From IMG/VR virus record IMGVR_UViG_2645727555_000025, positions 1-4,454 of that record: a stretch of DNA of 4,454 nt. One strand, 5' to 3'. Positions 1 through 4,454 of the stretch are shown here, piece by piece. Within the stretch, counting starts at the first letter, position 1, and the number at the start of each line of letters is the position of its first letter. This stretch comes from a virus. Lineage: Duplodnaviria > Heunggongvirae > Uroviricota > Caudoviricetes. A program made the translations under genes and the position numbers. The notes under the pieces were generated by a model, which had not been told where the DNA came from, searched no databases, and saw nothing but the letters and a program-made list of their open reading frames with translations.

Positions 1-39
1 TTGACGGACTTCAGGGGAAAAACGAGTATTTTTAGTCAT
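1..39 (-). CDS. IS3-family transposase OrfA, N-terminal 13 codons only (partial, runs off window)
   Basis: ATG at complement 39..37 preceded by AAGAGGT; translation MTKNTRFSPEVRQ... matches the remembered N-terminus of IS629-type OrfA. Confidence 0.65.
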   Translation of the reverse strand, partial: MTKNTRFSPEVRQ

Positions 40-68
40 CCTGTTTACCTCTTTCTCAGGAAGTTTAG

Positions 69-93
69 TCTCCAGGATTCCCGGGGCGGTTCA
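69..93 (-). repeat. Terminal inverted repeat (IRL) of the IS3-family element
   Basis: Reverse complement of 69-93 is TGAACCGCCCCGGGAATCCTGGAGA, a 25-bp end beginning with the 5'-TG typical of IS3-family termini. Confidence 0.65.
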
Positions 94-124
94 AGCAGGT
101 GATTTCAGCTCCGCTTTAAATGAG

Positions 125-706
125 TTGGAGTTAGCTCATGAGCCTATAAACGTAATTAAGGCTGAAAGTGTTGAATCTGCCGAAAACGAGCCAGAACAAT
201 TGGGATTTATTGAGGTTGAAGAGTGTGTTGAGGTTAATGATGAATTAAAAGTTCAACAGTCAAATGATAGCAATACAAATAAAAAAGCTCGTACTGCAAG
301 AGGTCCTCGTTTTACTTTAAGTGATAAAGATGATTTGTTTTTCAATAAAGCAGGCTTAGAAAAAGATATTTTCTTAGACGCTTACGAAAACGCGCCTGTC
401 AAAGCAAAGGATAAGATATTAAACCTTCTTAATTGGTTTAGCGGAGGTCCAGATATTAGTGTTTACACGGTAATTTCCATGAGACACCTTCTCACAGAAA
501 AGAAGGCTACAAGTAATAGTATTAAGATTGCTTTAATGAGCAATCCAGAAAAACCGTATCCGCTTAACACTGCGTCAACTCAGGCTGGGCAAATGATGGC
601 TGTATTTCCAGCTACAGGAATTGCTGTTAGAGACGGTGGAAATCTAACATTGAACGAAGAATCACCGATCGTTAAGAAGTTTGTCGCGGAGTACACTATT
701 GGATGA
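125..706 (+). CDS. Hypothetical protein (193 codons from TTG), acidic N-terminal segment; probably the 3' portion of a gene interrupted by the IS insertion
   Basis: Frame is open from nt 5 to stop at 704-706 with no ATG/GTG before 479 and no convincing SD at TTG 125; the IS end lies at nt 93, so the native 5' end is likely displaced. No recognisable motif. Confidence 0.45.
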   Translation: MELAHEPINVIKAESVESAENEPEQLGFIEVEECVEVNDELKVQQSNDSNTNKKARTARGPRFTLSDKDDLFFNKAGLEKDIFLDAYENAPVKAKDKILNLLNWFSGGPDISVYTVISMRHLLTEKKATSNSIKIALMSNPEKPYPLNTASTQAGQMMAVFPATGIAVRDGGNLTLNEESPIVKKFVAEYTIG

Positions 707-746
707 CGTTCCCCTACTGAAAATAAAGCCCATAGAGAGCTTTATA

Positions 747-776
747 GTGCTGGGTAAGCTAACCCATACCCAGCAC
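747..776. other. Stem-loop (10-bp stem GTGCTGGGTA / TACCCAGCAC, 10-nt loop)
   Basis: Perfect inverted repeat 747-756 versus 767-776, read directly. Confidence 0.4.
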
Positions 777-780
777 CACA

Positions 781-828
781 AAAACGCGCCAGAGAGCTTC
801 TTGTTCGCATTTCTGGCGCGTTTTATTT
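781..828. terminator. Bidirectional rho-independent terminator
   Basis: 13-bp perfect stem AAAACGCGCCAGA (781-793) / TCTGGCGCGTTTT (812-824) with GC-rich core, A-tract on the 5' side and TTTTATTT on the 3' side; lies between the ORF at 125-706 and the methyltransferase gene. Confidence 0.6.
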
Positions 829-857
829 GATTGCCATACATAAAATCAAATGCAAAA

Positions 858-877
858 ATAGGTAATCACTTACCTAT
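858..877. promoter_or_regulatory. Inverted repeat ATAGGTAA-TCAC-TTACCTAT just upstream of the methyltransferase start; candidate operator or translation-initiation hairpin
   Basis: 8-bp arms at 858-865 and 870-877, 4-bp spacer, ending 11 nt before ATG 889 and adjacent to the purine-rich RBS region. Confidence 0.3.
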
Positions 878-888
878 CGAGAAAGAAG

Positions 889-1482
889 ATGATTGCAGCC
901 GAAAAAATCAAACAGCGAAAGCGCGACAACTCTCTTCGTGACCTCTGGAGAACACCTGATTGGCTGTTTTCTGCCATTCAACGTTATCTTGGAGTGACAT
1001 TTGATGTTGACGTTGCCTGCAACAAGGACAATGCAAAGCTGCCTATTTTCATAGGCGTTGAGCGCGATGCTTTGAAATCTGAATGGGGGCAGCCAGGTAC
1101 AATTGCCTTCCTCAATCCACCCTACTCCAAAATCTCCCCCTGGATTGATGCGGCTATACGTGAGCAGGCTCGCGGAGTTACAACAGTGATGCTAATTCCT
1201 CAATCCCTCGATACAAAGTGGTATGAGCGTGCAACAGAGTATGCGAATGAGACGATTATTCTGTCTGGTGGCCGCGTTGCGTTTGTCGAGCCTGACGTCA
1301 ATTTGGGTCAGGTAGAAGTAAACATCAACCCCGGTGGCAGTATGCTCGTTGTTTTTCGAGGGTTTTGTCAGGACGCTGGGCACTCTATAAGCAAGATCCC
1401 TTTGGACGTCATGAAAAGTCTGGGAGGGTATGATCCTGCGAATGTGATCAGGAAAAAAAGACCATCAAAGAAGGCTGCTTAG
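889..1482 (+). CDS. Phage-type DNA N6-adenine methyltransferase (Dam family, Pfam PF05869-like), orphan
   Basis: 197 aa; N-terminal WRTPDWLF motif and NPPYS catalytic motif (the D/N-P-P-Y/F motif IV of amino-methyltransferases); purine-rich stretch before ATG 889. Confidence 0.85.
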   Translation: MIAAEKIKQRKRDNSLRDLWRTPDWLFSAIQRYLGVTFDVDVACNKDNAKLPIFIGVERDALKSEWGQPGTIAFLNPPYSKISPWIDAAIREQARGVTTVMLIPQSLDTKWYERATEYANETIILSGGRVAFVEPDVNLGQVEVNINPGGSMLVVFRGFCQDAGHSISKIPLDVMKSLGGYDPANVIRKKRPSKKAA

Positions 1483-1503
1483 TTTGCTCTGGCGTCTGTA
1501 ATT

Positions 1504-1562
1504 AGCCTGCTTCTGTATATATAAATAACTACATATTAATTATTAATATACGGAAGCAGGCT
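1504..1562. repeat. GC-clamped inverted repeat (12-bp arms) enclosing a 35-nt AT-rich palindromic core; candidate terminator or operator/promoter element
   Basis: AGCCTGCTTCTG (1504-1515) pairs with CGGAAGCAGGCT (1551-1562), one G-U equivalent. Core contains the perfect 17-bp palindrome ATATTAAT-T-ATTAATAT (1533-1549). Lies 22 bp after the methyltransferase stop. Confidence 0.45.
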
Positions 1563-1668
1563 GTTTTGTATCAGAGACTCCCAGACCTGAACATCACTAC
1601 AGAATCCACTAGACCCCCTTCCCAGACGCTTTAAAATCGATTTTATGAACCACTTTAAGGAAACCAAC

Positions 1669-1899
1669 ATGTCATACCCGACTAATGTCGTTGCGCTCGT
1701 AGAGAGCGATTTTCTGGCCCAGGCTCGTGAAATGATGAAAGATCGTGAGCAGGCTTTCAACTTGTACGAGTGGGCAATTAAGTGCTTGCATCTTGGCGAG
1801 CATCGCGAACTTGTTGAACAGCTTTTAGGTGAGTTGATCAATGAGGTGTTTGCCTTGAATGTTCAACTACATGGTCGAGAAAATAATCAATCACAATGA
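1669..1899 (+). CDS. Hypothetical small protein (76 aa)
   Basis: ATG 1669 preceded by AAGGA (1657-1661) at 7-nt spacing, preferred over the ORF-track ATG at 1645 which has no SD. Acidic, helix-like composition; no recognised family. Confidence 0.55.
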   Translation: MSYPTNVVALVESDFLAQAREMMKDREQAFNLYEWAIKCLHLGEHRELVEQLLGELINEVFALNVQLHGRENNQSQ

Positions 1900-2319
1900 T
1901 AGATAAGTACAAACTATTCATAAAGTGAATTGTAAGTGCTAAGATCTGATAGTTTCCAGTCGTAGACTGGAGGCTCGACCTGATGGGTGGGGGTAAGCGT
2001 CACTGGCGTCAGGTTTAAAAAAGCTCACTACCAGCGTAGAACCGGTGCCGTATAGGTGTCGGGGAAGGGGGAACCAAAGTGAGCAGAGACAAGGGTCACT
2101 TTATGATTGTCGAGTCTGGGGTGTTTCGAGAGGTTGAATCCAGTACTCCCCTTCATAAAGTGTGGGAAGATCTCGGTTCTGGGGTGCTGTCATCCATAAC
2201 TTCCCAAGTCTAAGCTGGCAGTAGACTTAGACCATAGCTTTTCAGGTTATGAAACGACCAGGTTGGTGAGGAATTTTATACTCACCTCCCTGGGAGAGTA
2301 TTACCTGAAAAGACAACCT

Positions 2320-2357
2320 CTCACTTCGTTCGAGGTGAACTTCACTCACTTCGTTCG
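2320..2357. repeat. Two perfect 13-bp direct repeats CTCACTTCGTTCG (2320-2332 and 2345-2357) flanking the small palindrome GTGAAC-TTCAC
   Basis: Read directly; about 125 bp upstream of the RNase H start codon. Confidence 0.6.
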
Positions 2358-2418
2358 TTCAGTTCAGGTTTATAAAAACCTGTTCTGGGAAGTAATTTGT
2401 TTATTTTAATAATTATTA

Positions 2419-2443
2419 ACACGCACGCGTGTGCGCACGCGCG
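2419..2443. promoter_or_regulatory. 25-nt perfectly alternating purine-pyrimidine tract (ACACGCACGCGTGTGCGCACGCGCG) with nested palindromes, in the RNase H promoter/5' UTR
   Basis: Strict Pu/Py alternation across 2419-2443; palindromes CACGCGTG (2424-2431) and GTGCGCAC (2431-2438); preceded by an AT-rich stretch (2393-2418) and followed by SD AGGAG (2471-2475). Confidence 0.5.
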
Positions 2444-2480
2444 AGGAAAAATCGGCGCGGCGCTTGATTCAGGAGTTTAT

Positions 2481-3071
2481 ATGACGACGAAGACACCAGC
2501 CCGATCGCAAGCAAAAACTCGCAAAAAAGACAAAAACAAAAATTCTCCCCGCACCAATCCCACAACGCCTGTCGTAGAGTTCAATCCCCAGCTTAAAACC
2601 GTGAAAATCTTTAGTGATGGCTCTTGCCTTAAAAATCCGGGTGGCCCGGGCGGTTACGGTATCGTTCTCCAGTATCGTGGTGAGGAACGCGAGTTCTCAG
2701 ATGGTTTTCATAGCACCACCAATAACCGCATGGAGATGATGGGGGCACTTATCGGGCTGGAGCGTTTGAAATATCCATGCAACGTTATTTTGCACTCTGA
2801 TAGCCAGTATCTGAAAAACGGCATGACACAGTGGATGAAATGGTGGAAACGCAATGGATGGATGACTTCTGACAAAAAACCGGTAAAGAATGTTGATCTG
2901 TGGAAGCGTCTGGATGAGGCCGCAAGTCGACATAATGTTCGCTGGAAGTGGGTTAAAGGTCACGCCGGGCATCGTGAAAATGAAATATGTGATCGACTCG
3001 CGAAGATCGCAGCTTTTTCAGCAGCAGATATGCCTCACAAGAAAGATATTGGTTTTGTTTATAACAAATAG
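2481..3071 (+). CDS. Ribonuclease HI homolog (RNase H type 1 fold) with a ~40-aa basic, low-complexity N-terminal extension
   Basis: 196 aa. From residue ~40 it aligns with E. coli RNase HI as I remember it: catalytic D (IFSDGSC), E (NNRMEMM), D (HSDSQY), H (KGHAGH), D (ICDRLA) and the GYG motif are all present. N-terminal 40 residues rich in K/R/T/P. Strong SD AGGAG 5 nt before ATG 2481, preferred over the ORF-track TTG at 2397. Confidence 0.85.
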
Positions 3072-3168
3072 TAAGTAAGTGTTTACCTATCATTTTAAAT
3101 CATGTATCTTATCGGCGTCAGGATGACAATGTGTCGGTAAGACACAGTTCCAGGATGGAACGAGAAAG

Positions 3169-3190
3169 GCGGCTGGCAATCGCCAGCCGC
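3169..3190 (+). terminator. GC-rich hairpin (9-bp stem, 4-nt loop), possible terminator/attenuator after the RNase H gene
   Basis: GCGGCTGGC-AATC-GCCAGCCGC followed by AACTCTTTCT, a weak U-tract. Confidence 0.4.
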
Positions 3191-3219
3191 AACTCTTTCT
3201 GACACTGGATGGAGTCCAC

Positions 3220-3714
3220 ATGGCACGTCAAACCTATTTCACTTCTGTAACTAAACGTCCTCGTTCTTTACGTCAAATTTTGGCCGAATTATTTAGCGGT
3301 CGTGTTATGTCACGTCTTGATGAACTAGAGACTACCGTTCGGTTGCTGAATGAACGTTTAGATAATCAAGCGTCAGTTGTTGCGAACGTGGGGGCGATTG
3401 TTGCCTCTGGTTCTTCACGCGAAGCGAAAAATGCACGGCCTTTAGTGAAGGAGAAAAACAACAAGGACAGTTCGAATGGAAAATTTTCAAAGAAAGAGGC
3501 TGAAACCAATGGCCTACGTTCTCATTATAGTTTCACTGGCGACGGTAGCCGTTCCAGCCGGTCAGAGCCTTTTGATGCCGGATTCATCCATCACCACACC
3601 TTCGTCGACGACAATTACCACCACTCCAGTGGAGCGTCCTGTCACTCTGGATGGGATGGCGGTGGATGCGATACCTCAAGTTCATCCAGTTACTCAGGAT
3701 CATGCTGTGACTAA
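3220..3714 (+). CDS. Hypothetical protein, predicted coiled-coil N-terminal half; C-terminal third is low-complexity (His/Ser/Cys/Gly) and may not be translated as drawn
   Basis: ATG 3220 with GGAG (3211-3214) at 5-nt spacing; first ~85 codons look like genuine coding sequence (amphipathic LDELETTVRLLNERLDN). From ~3480 the +1 frame looks more gene-like than this frame. Confidence 0.4.
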   Translation: MARQTYFTSVTKRPRSLRQILAELFSGRVMSRLDELETTVRLLNERLDNQASVVANVGAIVASGSSREAKNARPLVKEKNNKDSSNGKFSKKEAETNGLRSHYSFTGDGSRSSRSEPFDAGFIHHHTFVDDNYHHSSGASCHSGWDGGGCDTSSSSSYSGSCCD

Positions 3715-3727
3715 GGCGGTTGTATGA
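3476..3727 (+). CDS. Small secreted or membrane-anchored Thr/Pro-rich protein (83 aa) with N-terminal signal-peptide-like segment
   Basis: ATG 3476 preceded by AAGGA (3463-3467); basic n-region MENFQRKRLKP, hydrophobic h-region MAYVLIIVSLATVAV, then PAGQS and a T/S/P-rich region; codon choice looks typical for enterobacterial genes; stop TGA overlaps the next ATG. Confidence 0.5.
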   Translation: MENFQRKRLKPMAYVLIIVSLATVAVPAGQSLLMPDSSITTPSSTTITTTPVERPVTLDGMAVDAIPQVHPVTQDHAVTKAVV

Positions 3728-3912
3728 ACTGGTTTTCAAATCACTTTGGAAAAATTTGGCTGGCAATTCTTGCCCTCATGGCCGCCGGTTGGGTATCGAA
3801 CATTATAAAACTTGTTTGCTCTGGCGATCTCCAGTTTCAGGCTGGCATGACCTTGGCTCGTGTAGTTGGGATTTTTATTTTTCCAGTCGGTTCGGTACTT
3901 GGTTATTTCTGA
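3724..3912 (+). CDS. Small membrane protein (62 aa, two predicted transmembrane helices)
   Basis: ATG 3724 overlaps the upstream stop (ATGA), SD-like AAGGCGG upstream; hydrophobic segments IWLAILALMAAGWV and LARVVGIFIFPVGSVLGYF. Preferred over the W/C-rich ORF at 3720-3950 in another frame. Confidence 0.5.
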   Translation: MNWFSNHFGKIWLAILALMAAGWVSNIIKLVCSGDLQFQAGMTLARVVGIFIFPVGSVLGYF

Positions 3913-3944
3913 CGGTTGTTAGTGCATATGCATTGACCGTCTTT
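3911..3944 (+). terminator. Hairpin (GACGGT / ACCGTC stem around the palindrome TGCATATGCA) followed by CTTT; possible terminator
   Basis: Arms 3911-3916 and 3936-3941; inner palindrome 3923-3932; short T-run 3942-3944. Confidence 0.35.
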
Positions 3945-4005
3945 GCGTAAGCAATTTATTTAACTAGAAAACAACTTGTTTTGACAAATAACAAAAGGAA
4001 AACAC

Positions 4006-4416
4006 ATGTTAGGTTTCTTCAAAAAGAAAACTCGTAAAGCAGTTATCGAAGTCAAAAAAATGGAGAACCGTGATGCGGTTGAGGCCACCGTGTGGGGCGC
4101 GTACATGATCTCCTATGCCGACGGCACATGTGACGCAAAAGAAATTGCCATTCTTGAGAAGACAATTGCAGCTCTGCCTGCGTTTTCTCCGTTTGCTGGT
4201 GAAATTGCCCAAATGAGCGCCAATATCCGTGCTCGTTACGAAGCGTCCCCTCGTTCTGCTAATGCACAGGCTATTCGTGAGCTGTCTGATATTGCTGGTA
4301 CTCCAGAGGCGGTCGATGTTCTGTGTCTGTGCCTTGATATTGCCGATCAGGATGGCATTGGTCGAGTAGGCAGCCTGACGGCTGCGGCTTGTCATGGTCT
4401 GCAATTACCGTTATAA
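4006..4416 (+). CDS. TerB-fold (tellurite-resistance TerB-like) protein, 136 aa
   Basis: SD AAGGA (3995-3999) 6 nt before ATG 4006. N-terminus M-x-x-FF-K and two A-D-G-containing helical segments (YADGTCDAKEIAILEKTI; DIADQDGIGRVGSL) resemble the paired ADG motifs of TerB as I remember them. Confidence 0.7.
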   Translation: MLGFFKKKTRKAVIEVKKMENRDAVEATVWGAYMISYADGTCDAKEIAILEKTIAALPAFSPFAGEIAQMSANIRARYEASPRSANAQAIRELSDIAGTPEAVDVLCLCLDIADQDGIGRVGSLTAAACHGLQLPL

Positions 4417-4454
4417 AAACAGGCAATGTCATTGTCTTTCAGGTGGTTATATGG

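What the first reader, a model, noticed from the sequence alone, without database searches (positions are those of the whole stretch)
3476..3912. Translationally coupled pair: small secreted T/P-rich protein plus 62-aa two-helix membrane protein
The 83-aa ORF has a signal-peptide-like N-terminus and a Thr/Ser/Pro-rich body, and its TGA overlaps the ATG of the membrane protein (ATGA). A small exported protein coupled to a tiny membrane protein is the layout of toxin/immunity pairs, small lysis or entry-exclusion modules and membrane-acting defence effectors. I cannot assign it to any of these from sequence.
Basis: inference. Interest (0 to 1): 0.5.

Follow-up and report, generated by a model that had tools for sequence, protein, structure and literature searches.

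The report
Hidden overlapping gene in a phage-plasmid
The 83-codon reading frame is most likely a real gene for a small exported or membrane-anchored protein, but it lies out of frame inside a larger annotated gene of an SSU5-type phage-plasmid, so one stretch of DNA appears to encode two proteins; its function is still unknown.

Summary
An 83-aa ORF (3476..3727) has a basic and hydrophobic N-terminus and a Thr/Pro-rich body. Its stop overlaps the start (ATGA) of a 62-aa protein with two hydrophobic segments (3724..3912).

Every annotated record I inspected calls the 164-aa ORF there instead. The window is an IS-bracketed fragment of an SSU5/pHCM2-like phage-plasmid.

- **Both frames persist.** They are open in all 54 unique relatives analysed and in two much deeper relatives. 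Simulations with selection on one frame never reproduced this at the estimated tree length.
- **The substitution pattern switches frame.** Upstream of the overlap it follows the long frame. Inside the overlap it follows the embedded frame.
- **Start signals are kept.** A Shine-Dalgarno-like motif and a start codon precede the embedded ORF in every lineage.

My best reading is genuine dual coding, with the embedded gene carrying most of the constraint.

The 62-aa gene is real but optional: it is absent in 10 of 66 versions and stands alone in unrelated phages. That argues against an obligate toxin/immunity pair. The locus is not a spanin pair and not the lysis cassette. Function is unknown; an envelope-acting accessory role is a guess.

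The parts
3220..3714 (+). Outer 164-aa ORF, the one public annotation calls (WP_021512350, phrog_10411). It encodes an N-terminal long helix or coiled coil (residues 17-70) followed by a disordered Ser/Gly/Asp/His/Cys-rich tail ending in CCD. It has no transmembrane segment.
   Evidence: AF2 gives a confident helix at 17-70 and pLDDT of about 40 for 68-164. The maximum 19-residue hydropathy is 0.79. The part at 3220-3462 shows a normal coding pattern in this frame, 0.38/0.26/0.57. The frame is open in all 54 unique relatives and in L093 and L097.
3463..3467 (+). Shine-Dalgarno-like AAGGA, 8 nt upstream of the embedded ORF's ATG and inside the outer ORF.
   Evidence: A purine-rich AGGA/GGAG/GGGA/GGAAGG motif is kept 6-9 nt upstream of the start in every lineage, although the sequence itself differs.
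3476..3727 (+). Embedded 83-aa ORF in the +1 frame of the outer ORF (phrog_15659). It has a basic N-terminus, a 15-residue hydrophobic helix, a P-A-G-Q-S segment, a Thr/Pro-rich disordered body and a conserved LDGMxxDxIP motif. It is the frame under the stronger purifying selection.
   Evidence: The OLGenie-like dN/dS is 0.47 (0.25-0.86) for close pairs and 0.63 (0.50-0.80) for all pairs. Hydropathy is kept in 6 lineages. AF2 gives a helix at 3-24 and coil after it. The ORF is present in the deep relatives L093 and L097.
3476..3714 (+). Dual-coding stretch of 239 nt, read in two frames.
   Evidence: Substitution rates at long-frame codon positions 1/2/3 are 0.40/0.33/0.27 here. The maximum of 0.40 is well below the 0.57-0.64 seen at third positions in the flanking single-coding DNA.
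3712..3716 (+). TAAGG. The stop codon of the outer ORF doubles as the start of the Shine-Dalgarno-like motif of the 62-aa gene, 7 nt upstream of its ATG.
   Evidence: It is T(A/G)AGG in all lineages that carry the 62-aa gene.
3724..3727 (+). ATGA. The start codon of the 62-aa gene overlaps the stop codon of the embedded ORF.
   Evidence: It is ATGA or GTGA in the representative lineages that carry the 62-aa gene.
3724..3912 (+). 62-aa protein with two hydrophobic helices (phrog_6006; WP_014962274). It is an optional companion gene.
   Evidence: Coding pattern is 0.38/0.24/0.64. It is present in 56 of 66 unique versions. Stand-alone relatives occur in other phages.
3169..3190 (+). GC-rich hairpin (9 bp, 8 of them G-C) between rnhA and the outer ORF. 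It may be a terminator or attenuator, so the module may have its own transcriptional control.
   Evidence: consensus scan only; the T tail is weak.

Best explanation
Window 3220..3912 is a three-ORF module of an SSU5/pHCM2-type phage-plasmid in which 239 nt are read in two frames.

Shown or directly implied:
- Ribosomes starting at ATG 3220 make a 164-aa cytoplasmic protein: a long N-terminal helix plus a disordered Ser/Gly/His/Cys-rich tail. There is no in-frame stop before 3712, so they must translate through the overlap.
- The +1 frame of the overlap carries a conserved ORF with a conserved start codon and Shine-Dalgarno-like motif. It has a coding-type substitution pattern and a conserved hydrophobic N-terminal helix.

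Inferred:
- A second population of ribosomes starts at the internal AAGGA and ATG 3476. They make an 83-aa protein whose N-terminus is a Sec-type signal peptide or signal anchor.
- The Thr/Pro-rich body and the LDGMxxDxIP motif therefore end up on the periplasmic side of the inner membrane.
- The embedded gene's stop overlaps the start of the 62-aa two-helix membrane protein, so the two are co-translated where both are present.

Guess: the module is a non-lytic, envelope-acting accessory function of the phage-plasmid, for example blocking entry of related phages or adjusting the envelope of the carrier cell. It is neither a toxin/immunity pair nor a lysis device.
For: **Context.** Positions 93-4362 are 99.9% identical to plasmid pECOH89 and 98% identical to phages Cyrano and CMS-2020a.

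**Both frames are kept open.** They are open in all 54 unique relatives analysed and in the deep relatives L093 and L097. With synonymous codons reshuffled:
- P(long frame open | embedded protein) is 0.015-0.12 per lineage.
- P(embedded frame open | long protein) is 0.024-0.72 per lineage.

Tree simulations with selection on one frame only left the other frame open in all tips in:
- 0 of 400 runs at the estimated tree length.
- 0 and 2 of 300 at half that length.
- 5 and 14 of 300 at a quarter of it.

**The substitution phase switches.** Long-frame codon position 1/2/3 rates are 0.38/0.26/0.57 upstream of the overlap and 0.40/0.33/0.27 inside it. The latter is the embedded frame's pos3 > pos1 > pos2 pattern, with P(long pos1 > pos3) = 0.99. 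A model with selection on the long frame only predicts a long pos3 rate of about 0.5, against 0.27 observed.

**dN/dS in the overlap.**
- Embedded frame: 0.47 (0.25-0.86) for close pairs and 0.63 (0.50-0.80) for all pairs.
- Long frame: 0.63 (0.31-1.43) and 0.87 (0.67-1.15).

**There is weak extra constraint from the long frame.** The embedded third-position rate is 0.40 (CI 0.33-0.47). A model with selection on the embedded frame only predicts 0.50-0.53, and flanking third positions run at 0.57-0.64. The His cluster, the SGWD/SGWN motif and the terminal C-D recur in the deep homologues P0061 and P0068.

**Start signals are conserved.** The Shine-Dalgarno-like motif and an ATG or GTG start are kept in all lineages. 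The alternative start, M12, is not conserved.

**The proteins look as proposed.** The hydrophobic helix is kept through conservative replacements in 6 lineages. AF2 shows the overlap as the disordered tail of the long protein and as helix plus coil in the embedded protein.
Against: - There is no expression evidence for either product: no Ribo-seq, no proteomics, and no paper found on this locus.
- The signal peptide and topology rest on hydropathy and the (-3,-1) rule applied by eye. SignalP and TMHMM were not available.
- Amino-acid-level constraint on the long-frame tail is not significant in the dN/dS test (CI includes 1). 'Two functional proteins' is therefore less secure than 'two translated frames'.
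- The simulations use a crude NJ tree, one rate class and a uniform penalty for non-synonymous changes. They ignore recombination, which is frequent in these elements.
- The functional guess has no direct support. There are no hits in Pfam, NCBIfam, PADLOC or PDB.
- This particular copy is an IS-bracketed remnant and may not be expressed at all.
Confidence: 0.6

Rival explanations
1. Only the embedded 83-aa gene, and the N-terminal helix of the long protein, matter. The long-frame tail encoded by 3476-3711 has no function of its own as a peptide. It stays open only because a premature stop would uncouple translation from downstream genes, or because the tail is harmless.
For: Long-frame dN/dS in the overlap is not distinguishable from 1: 0.63 (0.31-1.43) and 0.87 (0.67-1.15). 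The tail is predicted disordered. Replacements there are radical in the long frame but conservative in the embedded frame, for example W to G versus D to E in L093, and the region opposite the embedded hydrophobic helix. The long ORF's stop lies inside the Shine-Dalgarno-like motif of the next gene.
Against: The long frame is open in every lineage despite a 0.015-0.12 chance per lineage and 5-10 available mutations that are silent in the embedded frame but create a long-frame stop. Embedded third positions evolve more slowly than a model with selection on the embedded frame only predicts (0.40 against 0.50-0.53). The His cluster, the S/G/D-rich region and the C-terminal C-D persist in P0061 and P0068 at about 25-45% identity. 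In L093 and L097 there is no 62-aa gene to couple to, yet the frame is still open to the same end point.
Confidence: 0.25
2. The public annotation is right and sufficient. Only the 164-aa ORF is a gene. The 83-aa ORF is an accidental open frame favoured by the composition of the long protein's tail.
For: Every annotated record I inspected, RefSeq and GenBank alike, calls only the long ORF here. Given the long protein, the +1 frame is open by chance with probability 0.13-0.72 in most lineages.
Against: Inside the overlap the long frame's third position is the least variable (0.27). A model with selection on the long frame only predicts about 0.5. Embedded dN/dS is significantly below 1. The start codon and Shine-Dalgarno-like motif are conserved in about 10 lineages, including L097, where P(open) is 0.024. 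The hydrophobic helix is maintained by conservative changes. The embedded frame is more conserved than the long frame over the same bases in most pairs. In simulations the embedded frame stayed open in all tips in 0 of 400 runs.
Confidence: 0.05
3. One reading: the 83-aa exported protein and the 62-aa membrane protein form a two-gene functional pair (toxin/immunity, small lysis module, entry exclusion or defence effector).
For: The ATGA/GTGA junction is kept wherever both are present, and they are adjacent in 56 of 66 unique versions. Both are predicted envelope proteins. The region is an accessory one next to TerB-like tciA and tciB.
Against: The 62-aa gene has been lost in at least 4 lineages that keep the 83-aa ORF. 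Its relatives stand alone in unrelated phages, with no 83-aa-like neighbour annotated. There is no PADLOC hit. The lysis cassette is elsewhere. An immunity gene that can be lost while the toxin stays, or the reverse, is not expected. An entry-exclusion role for either protein on its own is not excluded.
Confidence: 0.15
4. A spanin-like (Rz/Rz1-type) pair: the outer gene is the inner-membrane subunit and the embedded gene is the outer-membrane subunit.
For: The geometry is the same. A small ORF with a signal sequence and a Pro-rich body lies in the +1 frame inside the 3' half of a gene for a coiled-coil protein.
Against: The E. coli, SSU5 and Cronobacter versions have no lipobox and no Cys at all in the embedded protein. 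The outer protein has no N-terminal transmembrane segment. Phage Cyrano has holin, endolysin, Rz and Rz1 annotated at 26.7-28.2 kb, about 52 kb away.
Confidence: 0.02
5. Programmed +1 frameshifting joins the N-terminal part of the long protein to the C-terminal part of the embedded frame.
For: Database proteins P0011, P0013, P0014 and P0018 (168 aa) are exactly such fusions. All of them switch at the TTTT run at 3570-3573.
Against: Other fusion variants switch at scattered sites (P0022, P0024, P0026, L057, L084), as expected for sequencing errors or null alleles. The TTTT run is an ordinary homopolymer with no recognisable shift-prone context. It is not conserved as a motif in the SSU5, Klebsiella or Anatum lineages, where the long frame reads SV, VA or SS there instead of PF. 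The embedded ORF has its own conserved start and Shine-Dalgarno-like motif.
Confidence: 0.03

Closest known systems
Lambda Rz/Rz1 (two-component spanin genes, embedded architecture)
   Same: A small ORF lies entirely in the +1 frame within the 3' half of a larger gene. The inner product has an N-terminal signal sequence and a proline-rich body, and the outer product is largely coiled coil. Both frames are conserved across relatives. (Rz/Rz1 architecture is from my own knowledge and PMC6139136.)
   Different: The embedded protein has no lipobox Cys. The outer protein has no transmembrane domain. The locus is not in the lysis cassette, and the phage has separate Rz and Rz1 genes. There is no sequence similarity.
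phiX174 D/E and MS2 L (small membrane-targeted proteins overprinted on another gene)
   Same: A short protein with an N-terminal hydrophobic helix arises in the +1 frame of a pre-existing gene. The product of the overlap is disordered or low in complexity. (From my own knowledge.)
   Different: Those are lysis proteins of tiny ssDNA and ssRNA phages that are under strong genome compression. This is a 110-kb dsDNA phage-plasmid with a separate lysis cassette, and no lysis role is indicated.
PHROG families phrog_15659 (embedded), phrog_10411 (outer) and phrog_6006 (62 aa)
   Same: The matches are direct: E = 8e-47, 7e-79 and 2e-25. All three families have unknown function.
   Different: PHROGs treats the two overlapping frames as unrelated families and does not record that they share DNA. 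phrog_15659 models only residues 12-83, starting at a Met that is not conserved.
Small phage-encoded envelope proteins used for superinfection exclusion (T4 Imm/Sp, HK97 gp15, P1 Sim, T5 Llp, Cor)
   Same: Size, predicted envelope location, position among accessory genes of a temperate element, and patchy distribution. (From my own knowledge.)
   Different: There is no sequence or fold similarity that I could test, and no phenotype is known. This is an analogy, not membership.

Membership tests
Same-strand overlapping (overprinted) protein-coding gene pair | Both reading frames stay open across diverged relatives more often than one-frame selection allows. | tested here: met
   54 of 54 unique relatives plus L093 and L097. 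One-frame simulations gave 0 of 400 runs, and 5 and 14 of 300 with the tree shortened fourfold. Reshuffle probabilities are 0.015-0.12 and 0.024-0.72.
Same-strand overlapping (overprinted) protein-coding gene pair | Purifying selection is detectable in the alternative (embedded) frame. | tested here: met
   The phase pattern switches to the embedded frame, with P = 0.99. dNN/dNS is 0.47 (0.25-0.86) and 0.63 (0.50-0.80).
Same-strand overlapping (overprinted) protein-coding gene pair | Purifying selection at the amino-acid level in the reference (long) frame within the overlap. | tested here: inconclusive
   dNN/dSN is 0.63 (0.31-1.43) and 0.87 (0.67-1.15). However, embedded third positions evolve more slowly than a model with selection on the embedded frame only predicts, and tail motifs persist in deep homologues.
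Same-strand overlapping (overprinted) protein-coding gene pair | An independent translation start (start codon plus ribosome-binding site) for the embedded gene. | tested here: met
   An ATG or GTG with AGGA/GGAG/GGGA/GGAAGG 6-9 nt upstream is present in all lineages.
Same-strand overlapping (overprinted) protein-coding gene pair | Both products are detected experimentally. | not testable with these tools
   I found no expression data in the papers searched.
Two-component spanin (Rz/Rz1) | The o-spanin has a lipoprotein signal with a lipobox Cys. | tested here: not met
   There is no Cys in the E. coli, SSU5, Cronobacter or L070 embedded proteins.
Two-component spanin (Rz/Rz1) | The i-spanin has an N-terminal transmembrane domain. 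| tested here: not met
   The outer protein's maximum 19-residue hydropathy is 0.79, and its N-terminus is basic and polar.
Two-component spanin (Rz/Rz1) | It is located in the lysis cassette with holin and endolysin. | tested here: not met
   Cyrano's lysis cassette is at 26.7-28.2 kb and this locus is at 79.8-80.5 kb.
Toxin/immunity or toxin-antitoxin two-gene module (83 aa + 62 aa) | The two genes are strictly co-conserved. | tested here: not met
   The 62-aa gene is absent in 10 of 66 unique versions from at least 4 lineages. Its family also occurs alone in other phages.
Known anti-phage defence systems (PADLOC-DB 2.0) | A match to a defence-protein model. | tested here: not met
   There were no hits at E <= 0.1 for any of the three proteins.
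Sec-type signal peptide or signal anchor (83-aa protein) | A basic n-region, a hydrophobic h-region of 7-20 residues, and small residues at -3 and -1 of a c-region. | tested here: inconclusive
   The n-region (RKRLK) and a 15-residue h-region are conserved. GQS, TQA or SQA after a Pro fit the (-3,-1) rule, but I only judged this by eye. No SignalP or DeepTMHMM was available, so I cannot separate a cleaved signal from an anchor.
phrog_6006 (62-aa protein) | A profile match over the full length. | tested here: met
   E = 2e-25, covering residues 7-62 of the protein and positions 1-58 of 58 in the profile.

The most novel reading that the evidence does not exclude
The outer and embedded genes form a previously unrecognised, family-wide two-protein system encoded by the same DNA. 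One product is a cytoplasmic coiled-coil protein with a His/Cys/Ser-rich tail. The other is an exported Thr/Pro-rich peptide. They would act together at the envelope of cells carrying SSU5-type phage-plasmids. This would be a non-lytic counterpart of the Rz/Rz1 architecture, with the 62-aa membrane protein as an optional third part.
Probability: 0.25. Interest if true: 0.65.

Novelty: new member of a known kind. Interest (0 to 1): 0.5.

Why it matters
SSU5/pHCM2-type phage-plasmids are common in clinical E. coli, Klebsiella, Salmonella and Cronobacter. This region matched in 680 plasmid records.

RefSeq's annotation hides one of two overlapping genes. Other pipelines call the embedded frame instead, so comparative tables treat one locus as two unrelated 'hypothetical proteins'.

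Recognising it as a conserved dual-coding locus does three things:
- It adds a dsDNA-phage example of overprinting outside lysis genes.
- It flags a small exported protein as a candidate for lysogenic conversion or exclusion phenotypes.
- It gives clean separation-of-function mutations to test it.

It is not a new kind of biology, and the function is still unknown.

Tried and rejected
- **Family scans.** Pfam, NCBIfam and PADLOC scans of the three proteins gave nothing significant.
- **PDB sequence searches.** They returned only weak coiled-coil hits for the long protein (SlyX, gp26; E >= 0.05). For the 62-aa protein they returned a repeat-summation artefact on designed armadillo proteins, with no single stretch passing. 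The embedded protein gave nothing.
- **Fold search.** I did not run it. Both AF2 models are one helix plus low-confidence coil (pLDDT 56 and 54), so any matches would be meaningless.
- **Word-indexed protein searches.** They returned only SSU5-family relatives. The exhaustive profile search was needed to reach P0061 and P0068.
- **Genome-contig scan.** It added only 3 loci.
- **Spanin hypothesis.** Rejected.
- **Programmed frameshift.** Rejected as the main explanation, because fusion variants switch at scattered sites.
- **Rfam scan of the window.** No hits.
- **Promoter scan.** No convincing sigma-70 promoter on the + strand for the module.
- **Literature.** I found no paper on this locus.
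Full report
**What the window is.** Positions 93-4362 are 99.9% identical to the 111.7-kb E. coli plasmid pECOH89 (NC_023916). They are 97.5-98.3% identical to Escherichia phages CMS-2020a, Cyrano and PhiR41_1, and about 77-78% identical to Salmonella phage SSU5 and related Klebsiella phages. These are SSU5/pHCM2-type phage-plasmids (PMC7969092). The gene order is a Dam-like methyltransferase, a 76-aa ORF, a ~480-nt ORF-poor gap, rnhA, the locus in question, then TerB-like tciA. The first 92 and last 92 bases match IS and transposase ends instead. The window is therefore a 4.27-kb phage-plasmid fragment bracketed by insertion sequences, and its tciA-like ORF is cut at 4362.

**The observation.** The 83-aa ORF (3476..3727) and the 62-aa ORF (3724..3912) exist, and they share ATGA at 3724-3727.
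- The 83-aa product starts with MENFQRKRLKP.
- A 15-residue hydrophobic stretch follows (Kyte-Doolittle 2.53).
- Then comes P-A-G-Q-S, then a body rich in V, T, P, A and S.
- The 62-aa product has two hydrophobic segments.

The 83-aa ORF lies entirely inside, and one base out of frame with, a 164-aa ORF (3220..3714). Every annotated record I inspected, RefSeq and GenBank alike, annotates the 164-aa ORF and the 62-aa ORF but not the 83-aa one. Other pipelines have deposited the 83-aa protein, or a 72-aa version starting at Met12, as 'hypothetical protein' on more than 1000 contigs. PHROGs holds separate families for each frame: phrog_10411, phrog_15659 and phrog_6006. The real question is therefore which frame is the gene.

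**Both frames persist.** I collected 85 related loci from plasmids, phages, IMG/VR and GTDB genomes. That gave 54 unique versions spanning E. coli, SSU5/pHCM2, Klebsiella, Cronobacter, S. Anatum and other lineages, at 40-55% amino-acid identity in the long frame. Both frames are open in all 54.

Two loci and several database proteins are frame-fusion variants. They switch at scattered places, most often at the TTTT run at 3570-3573. They look like sequencing errors or null alleles rather than programmed frameshifting.

An exhaustive profile search found two much deeper relatives of the long protein, P0061 and P0068. Their contigs are syntenic (rnhA, long ORF, tciA) and lack the 62-aa gene. Both carry the embedded +1 ORF, which has:
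- an ME(N/K)(F/Y)Q(R/Q)K(R/C)L(K/Q)P start;
- a hydrophobic helix;
- an L(D/E)GM motif;
- an AAGGA or GGAAGG motif 6-8 nt upstream of an ATG or GTG.

**Which frame is under selection.**
- *Substitution phase.* In the long ORF upstream of the overlap (3220-3462), pairwise differences between distant lineages at codon positions 1/2/3 are 0.38/0.26/0.57. That is a normal coding pattern. Inside the overlap (3479-3711) the same positions give 0.40/0.33/0.27. This is the pos3 > pos1 > pos2 pattern of the embedded frame, and the bootstrap P(long pos1 > pos3) is 0.99.
- *dN/dS.* An OLGenie-style count gives the embedded frame 0.47 (0.25-0.86) for close pairs and 0.63 (0.50-0.80) for all pairs. The long frame in the overlap gives 0.63 (0.31-1.43) and 0.87 (0.67-1.15), not distinguishable from 1.
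- *Conservation.* Over the same bases the embedded frame is the better conserved protein in most lineage pairs. Its hydrophobic helix is kept by V/A/I/L/T exchanges, while the long frame opposite it drifts radically.
- *Forward simulations on the tree.* A model with selection on the long frame only predicts a long pos3 rate of about 0.5, against 0.27 observed, so it fails. A model with selection on the embedded frame only predicts a long pos1 rate of 0.50-0.53, against 0.40 observed (CI 0.33-0.47), so it also misses. A dual model with weak long-frame and stronger embedded-frame constraint comes closest.

**Openness of the frames.**
- Given only the embedded protein and random synonymous codons, the long frame would be open with probability 0.015-0.12 per lineage.
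- Given only the long protein, the embedded frame would be open with probability 0.024-0.72.
- On the estimated tree (about 4.3 neutral substitutions per site), single-frame selection left the other frame open in all 54 tips in 0 of 400 runs.
- With the tree halved it was 0 and 2 of 300. With the tree quartered it was 5 and 14 of 300.

The highest substitution rate at any codon position in the overlap (0.40) is well below the third-position rates in the flanking single-coding DNA: 0.57 upstream and 0.64 in the 62-aa gene. That is what double constraint predicts.

The upstream part of the long ORF is clearly coding and there is no stop before 3712. Ribosomes that start at 3220 must therefore read through the overlap. 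If the internal start is used as well, the DNA is translated in two frames.

**Start signals.** AAGGA lies 8 nt upstream of ATG 3476. Other lineages have AGGGA, GGAG or GGAAGG at 6-9 nt, so the motif is preserved although the sequence differs. Met12 is not conserved (I, L or S in three lineages), so codon 1 is the start. The long ORF's stop, T(A/G)A, is the first part of the T(A/G)AGG motif 7 nt upstream of the 62-aa gene's start. The embedded ORF's stop overlaps that start.

**The proteins.**
- AF2 models the long protein as one confident helix (17-70, pLDDT up to 95) followed by a disordered tail (68-164, pLDDT about 40). The overlap therefore encodes only the tail. That tail is rich in S, G, D, H and C. 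It contains a His cluster and a C-x-S-G-W-(D/N) motif, and it ends in C-D. These features recur in P0061 and partly in P0068.
- The embedded protein is modelled as an N-terminal helix (3-24) followed by coil.
- The motif after the helix, [VI]P-x-x-Q-[SAG] followed by L, fits the small -3/-1 rule for signal peptidase I, but I could only judge that by eye.
- There are no Pfam, NCBIfam, PADLOC or meaningful PDB matches.

**The 62-aa gene.** It is a real gene (0.38/0.24/0.64) of family phrog_6006. It follows the embedded ORF in 56 of 66 unique versions. It is absent in at least four lineages that keep the overlapping pair. Distant relatives stand alone in Aeromonas, Vibrio, Acinetobacter and T1-like phages, in unrelated neighbourhoods. 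It is an optional companion, not half of an obligate pair.

**What it is not.**
- It is not a spanin pair. There is no lipobox Cys and no transmembrane domain in the outer protein, and phage Cyrano has holin, endolysin, Rz and Rz1 about 52 kb away.
- It is not a recognisable defence system.
- It is not an obligate toxin/immunity pair.
- It is unlikely to be a programmed frameshift.

**Best reading.** This is a conserved dual-coding locus. A small Sec-targeted or membrane-anchored Thr/Pro-rich protein is encoded in the +1 frame of the disordered tail of a cytoplasmic coiled-coil protein. It starts from its own ribosome-binding site and, where present, is translationally coupled to a two-helix membrane protein. 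The embedded gene carries most of the sequence constraint. The long frame is kept open and shows weak signs of constraint.

Function is unknown. Given its location among accessory genes next to tciA and tciB, and the predicted envelope targeting, I favour a non-lytic envelope role such as exclusion of incoming phage. That is a guess.

**Novelty.** Out-of-frame embedded genes are well known in phages (Rz/Rz1, phiX174 E). This is a new member of that kind, outside a lysis cassette and unrecognised in the annotated records I inspected.

**Limits.**
- There are no expression data.
- Topology rests on hydropathy only.
- The simulations use a crude tree, a uniform penalty for amino-acid changes and no recombination.
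- The copy in this window is an IS-bracketed remnant.

Noticed in passing
window 1920-2400 (+); alignment A5: The ~480-nt ORF-poor gap between the 76-aa ORF and rnhA folds far better than shuffles (-172.7 kcal/mol, z = -4.36, 0 of 100 shuffles as good) and has no Rfam hit. It is almost identical across E. coli, SSU5, pHCM2, Klebsiella, Cronobacter and S. Anatum versions, even though their flanking coding DNA is far more diverged. Its two 5' hairpins show AU<->GC and CG<->UA double changes. It may be a large structured RNA or a cis-acting DNA element.
   Followed up: partly
window 1-92 and 4363-4454: Both ends of the window are insertion-sequence or transposase ends: an IS629/IS3-like left end and a transposase-annotated right end. 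The phage-plasmid DNA is therefore a 4.27-kb remnant between IS elements. The 5' gene (phrog_5235) and the TerB-like tciA ORF (4006..4416) are truncated at the junctions. No record in the plasmid, phage or E. coli genome collections matched more than positions 93-4362.
   Followed up: partly
window 2421-2445: An alternating purine/pyrimidine, partly palindromic tract (ACGCACGCGTGTGCGCACGCGCG) lies just upstream of the rnhA start. It is conserved in the other lineages.
   Followed up: no
window 3570-3573 (TTTT): Four database protein clusters (P0011, P0013, P0014, P0018; 168 aa) are fusions that switch from the long frame to the embedded frame exactly at this homopolymer. They are probably sequencing errors or null alleles, but the recurrence is notable.
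   Followed up: partly
L011 1490..1990 (Cronobacter plasmid pCsaC757b) and relatives L059-L065: In the Cronobacter lineage the embedded frame is open for 166 codons. It runs back through the whole long ORF to an ATG 11 nt upstream of the long ORF's start.
   Followed up: no
L089 1399..1584, L090 2950..3156, L091 3019..3168, L092 2989..3168: Distant relatives of the 62-aa membrane protein are stand-alone genes in Aeromonas, Vibrio, T1-like Escherichia and Acinetobacter phages. They sit among early or accessory genes or between head genes, never in a lysis cassette.
   Followed up: partly
window 3169-3190: A 9-bp, GC-rich hairpin lies between rnhA and the long ORF, with only a weak T tail. It scores as terminator-like on both strands.
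   Followed up: no
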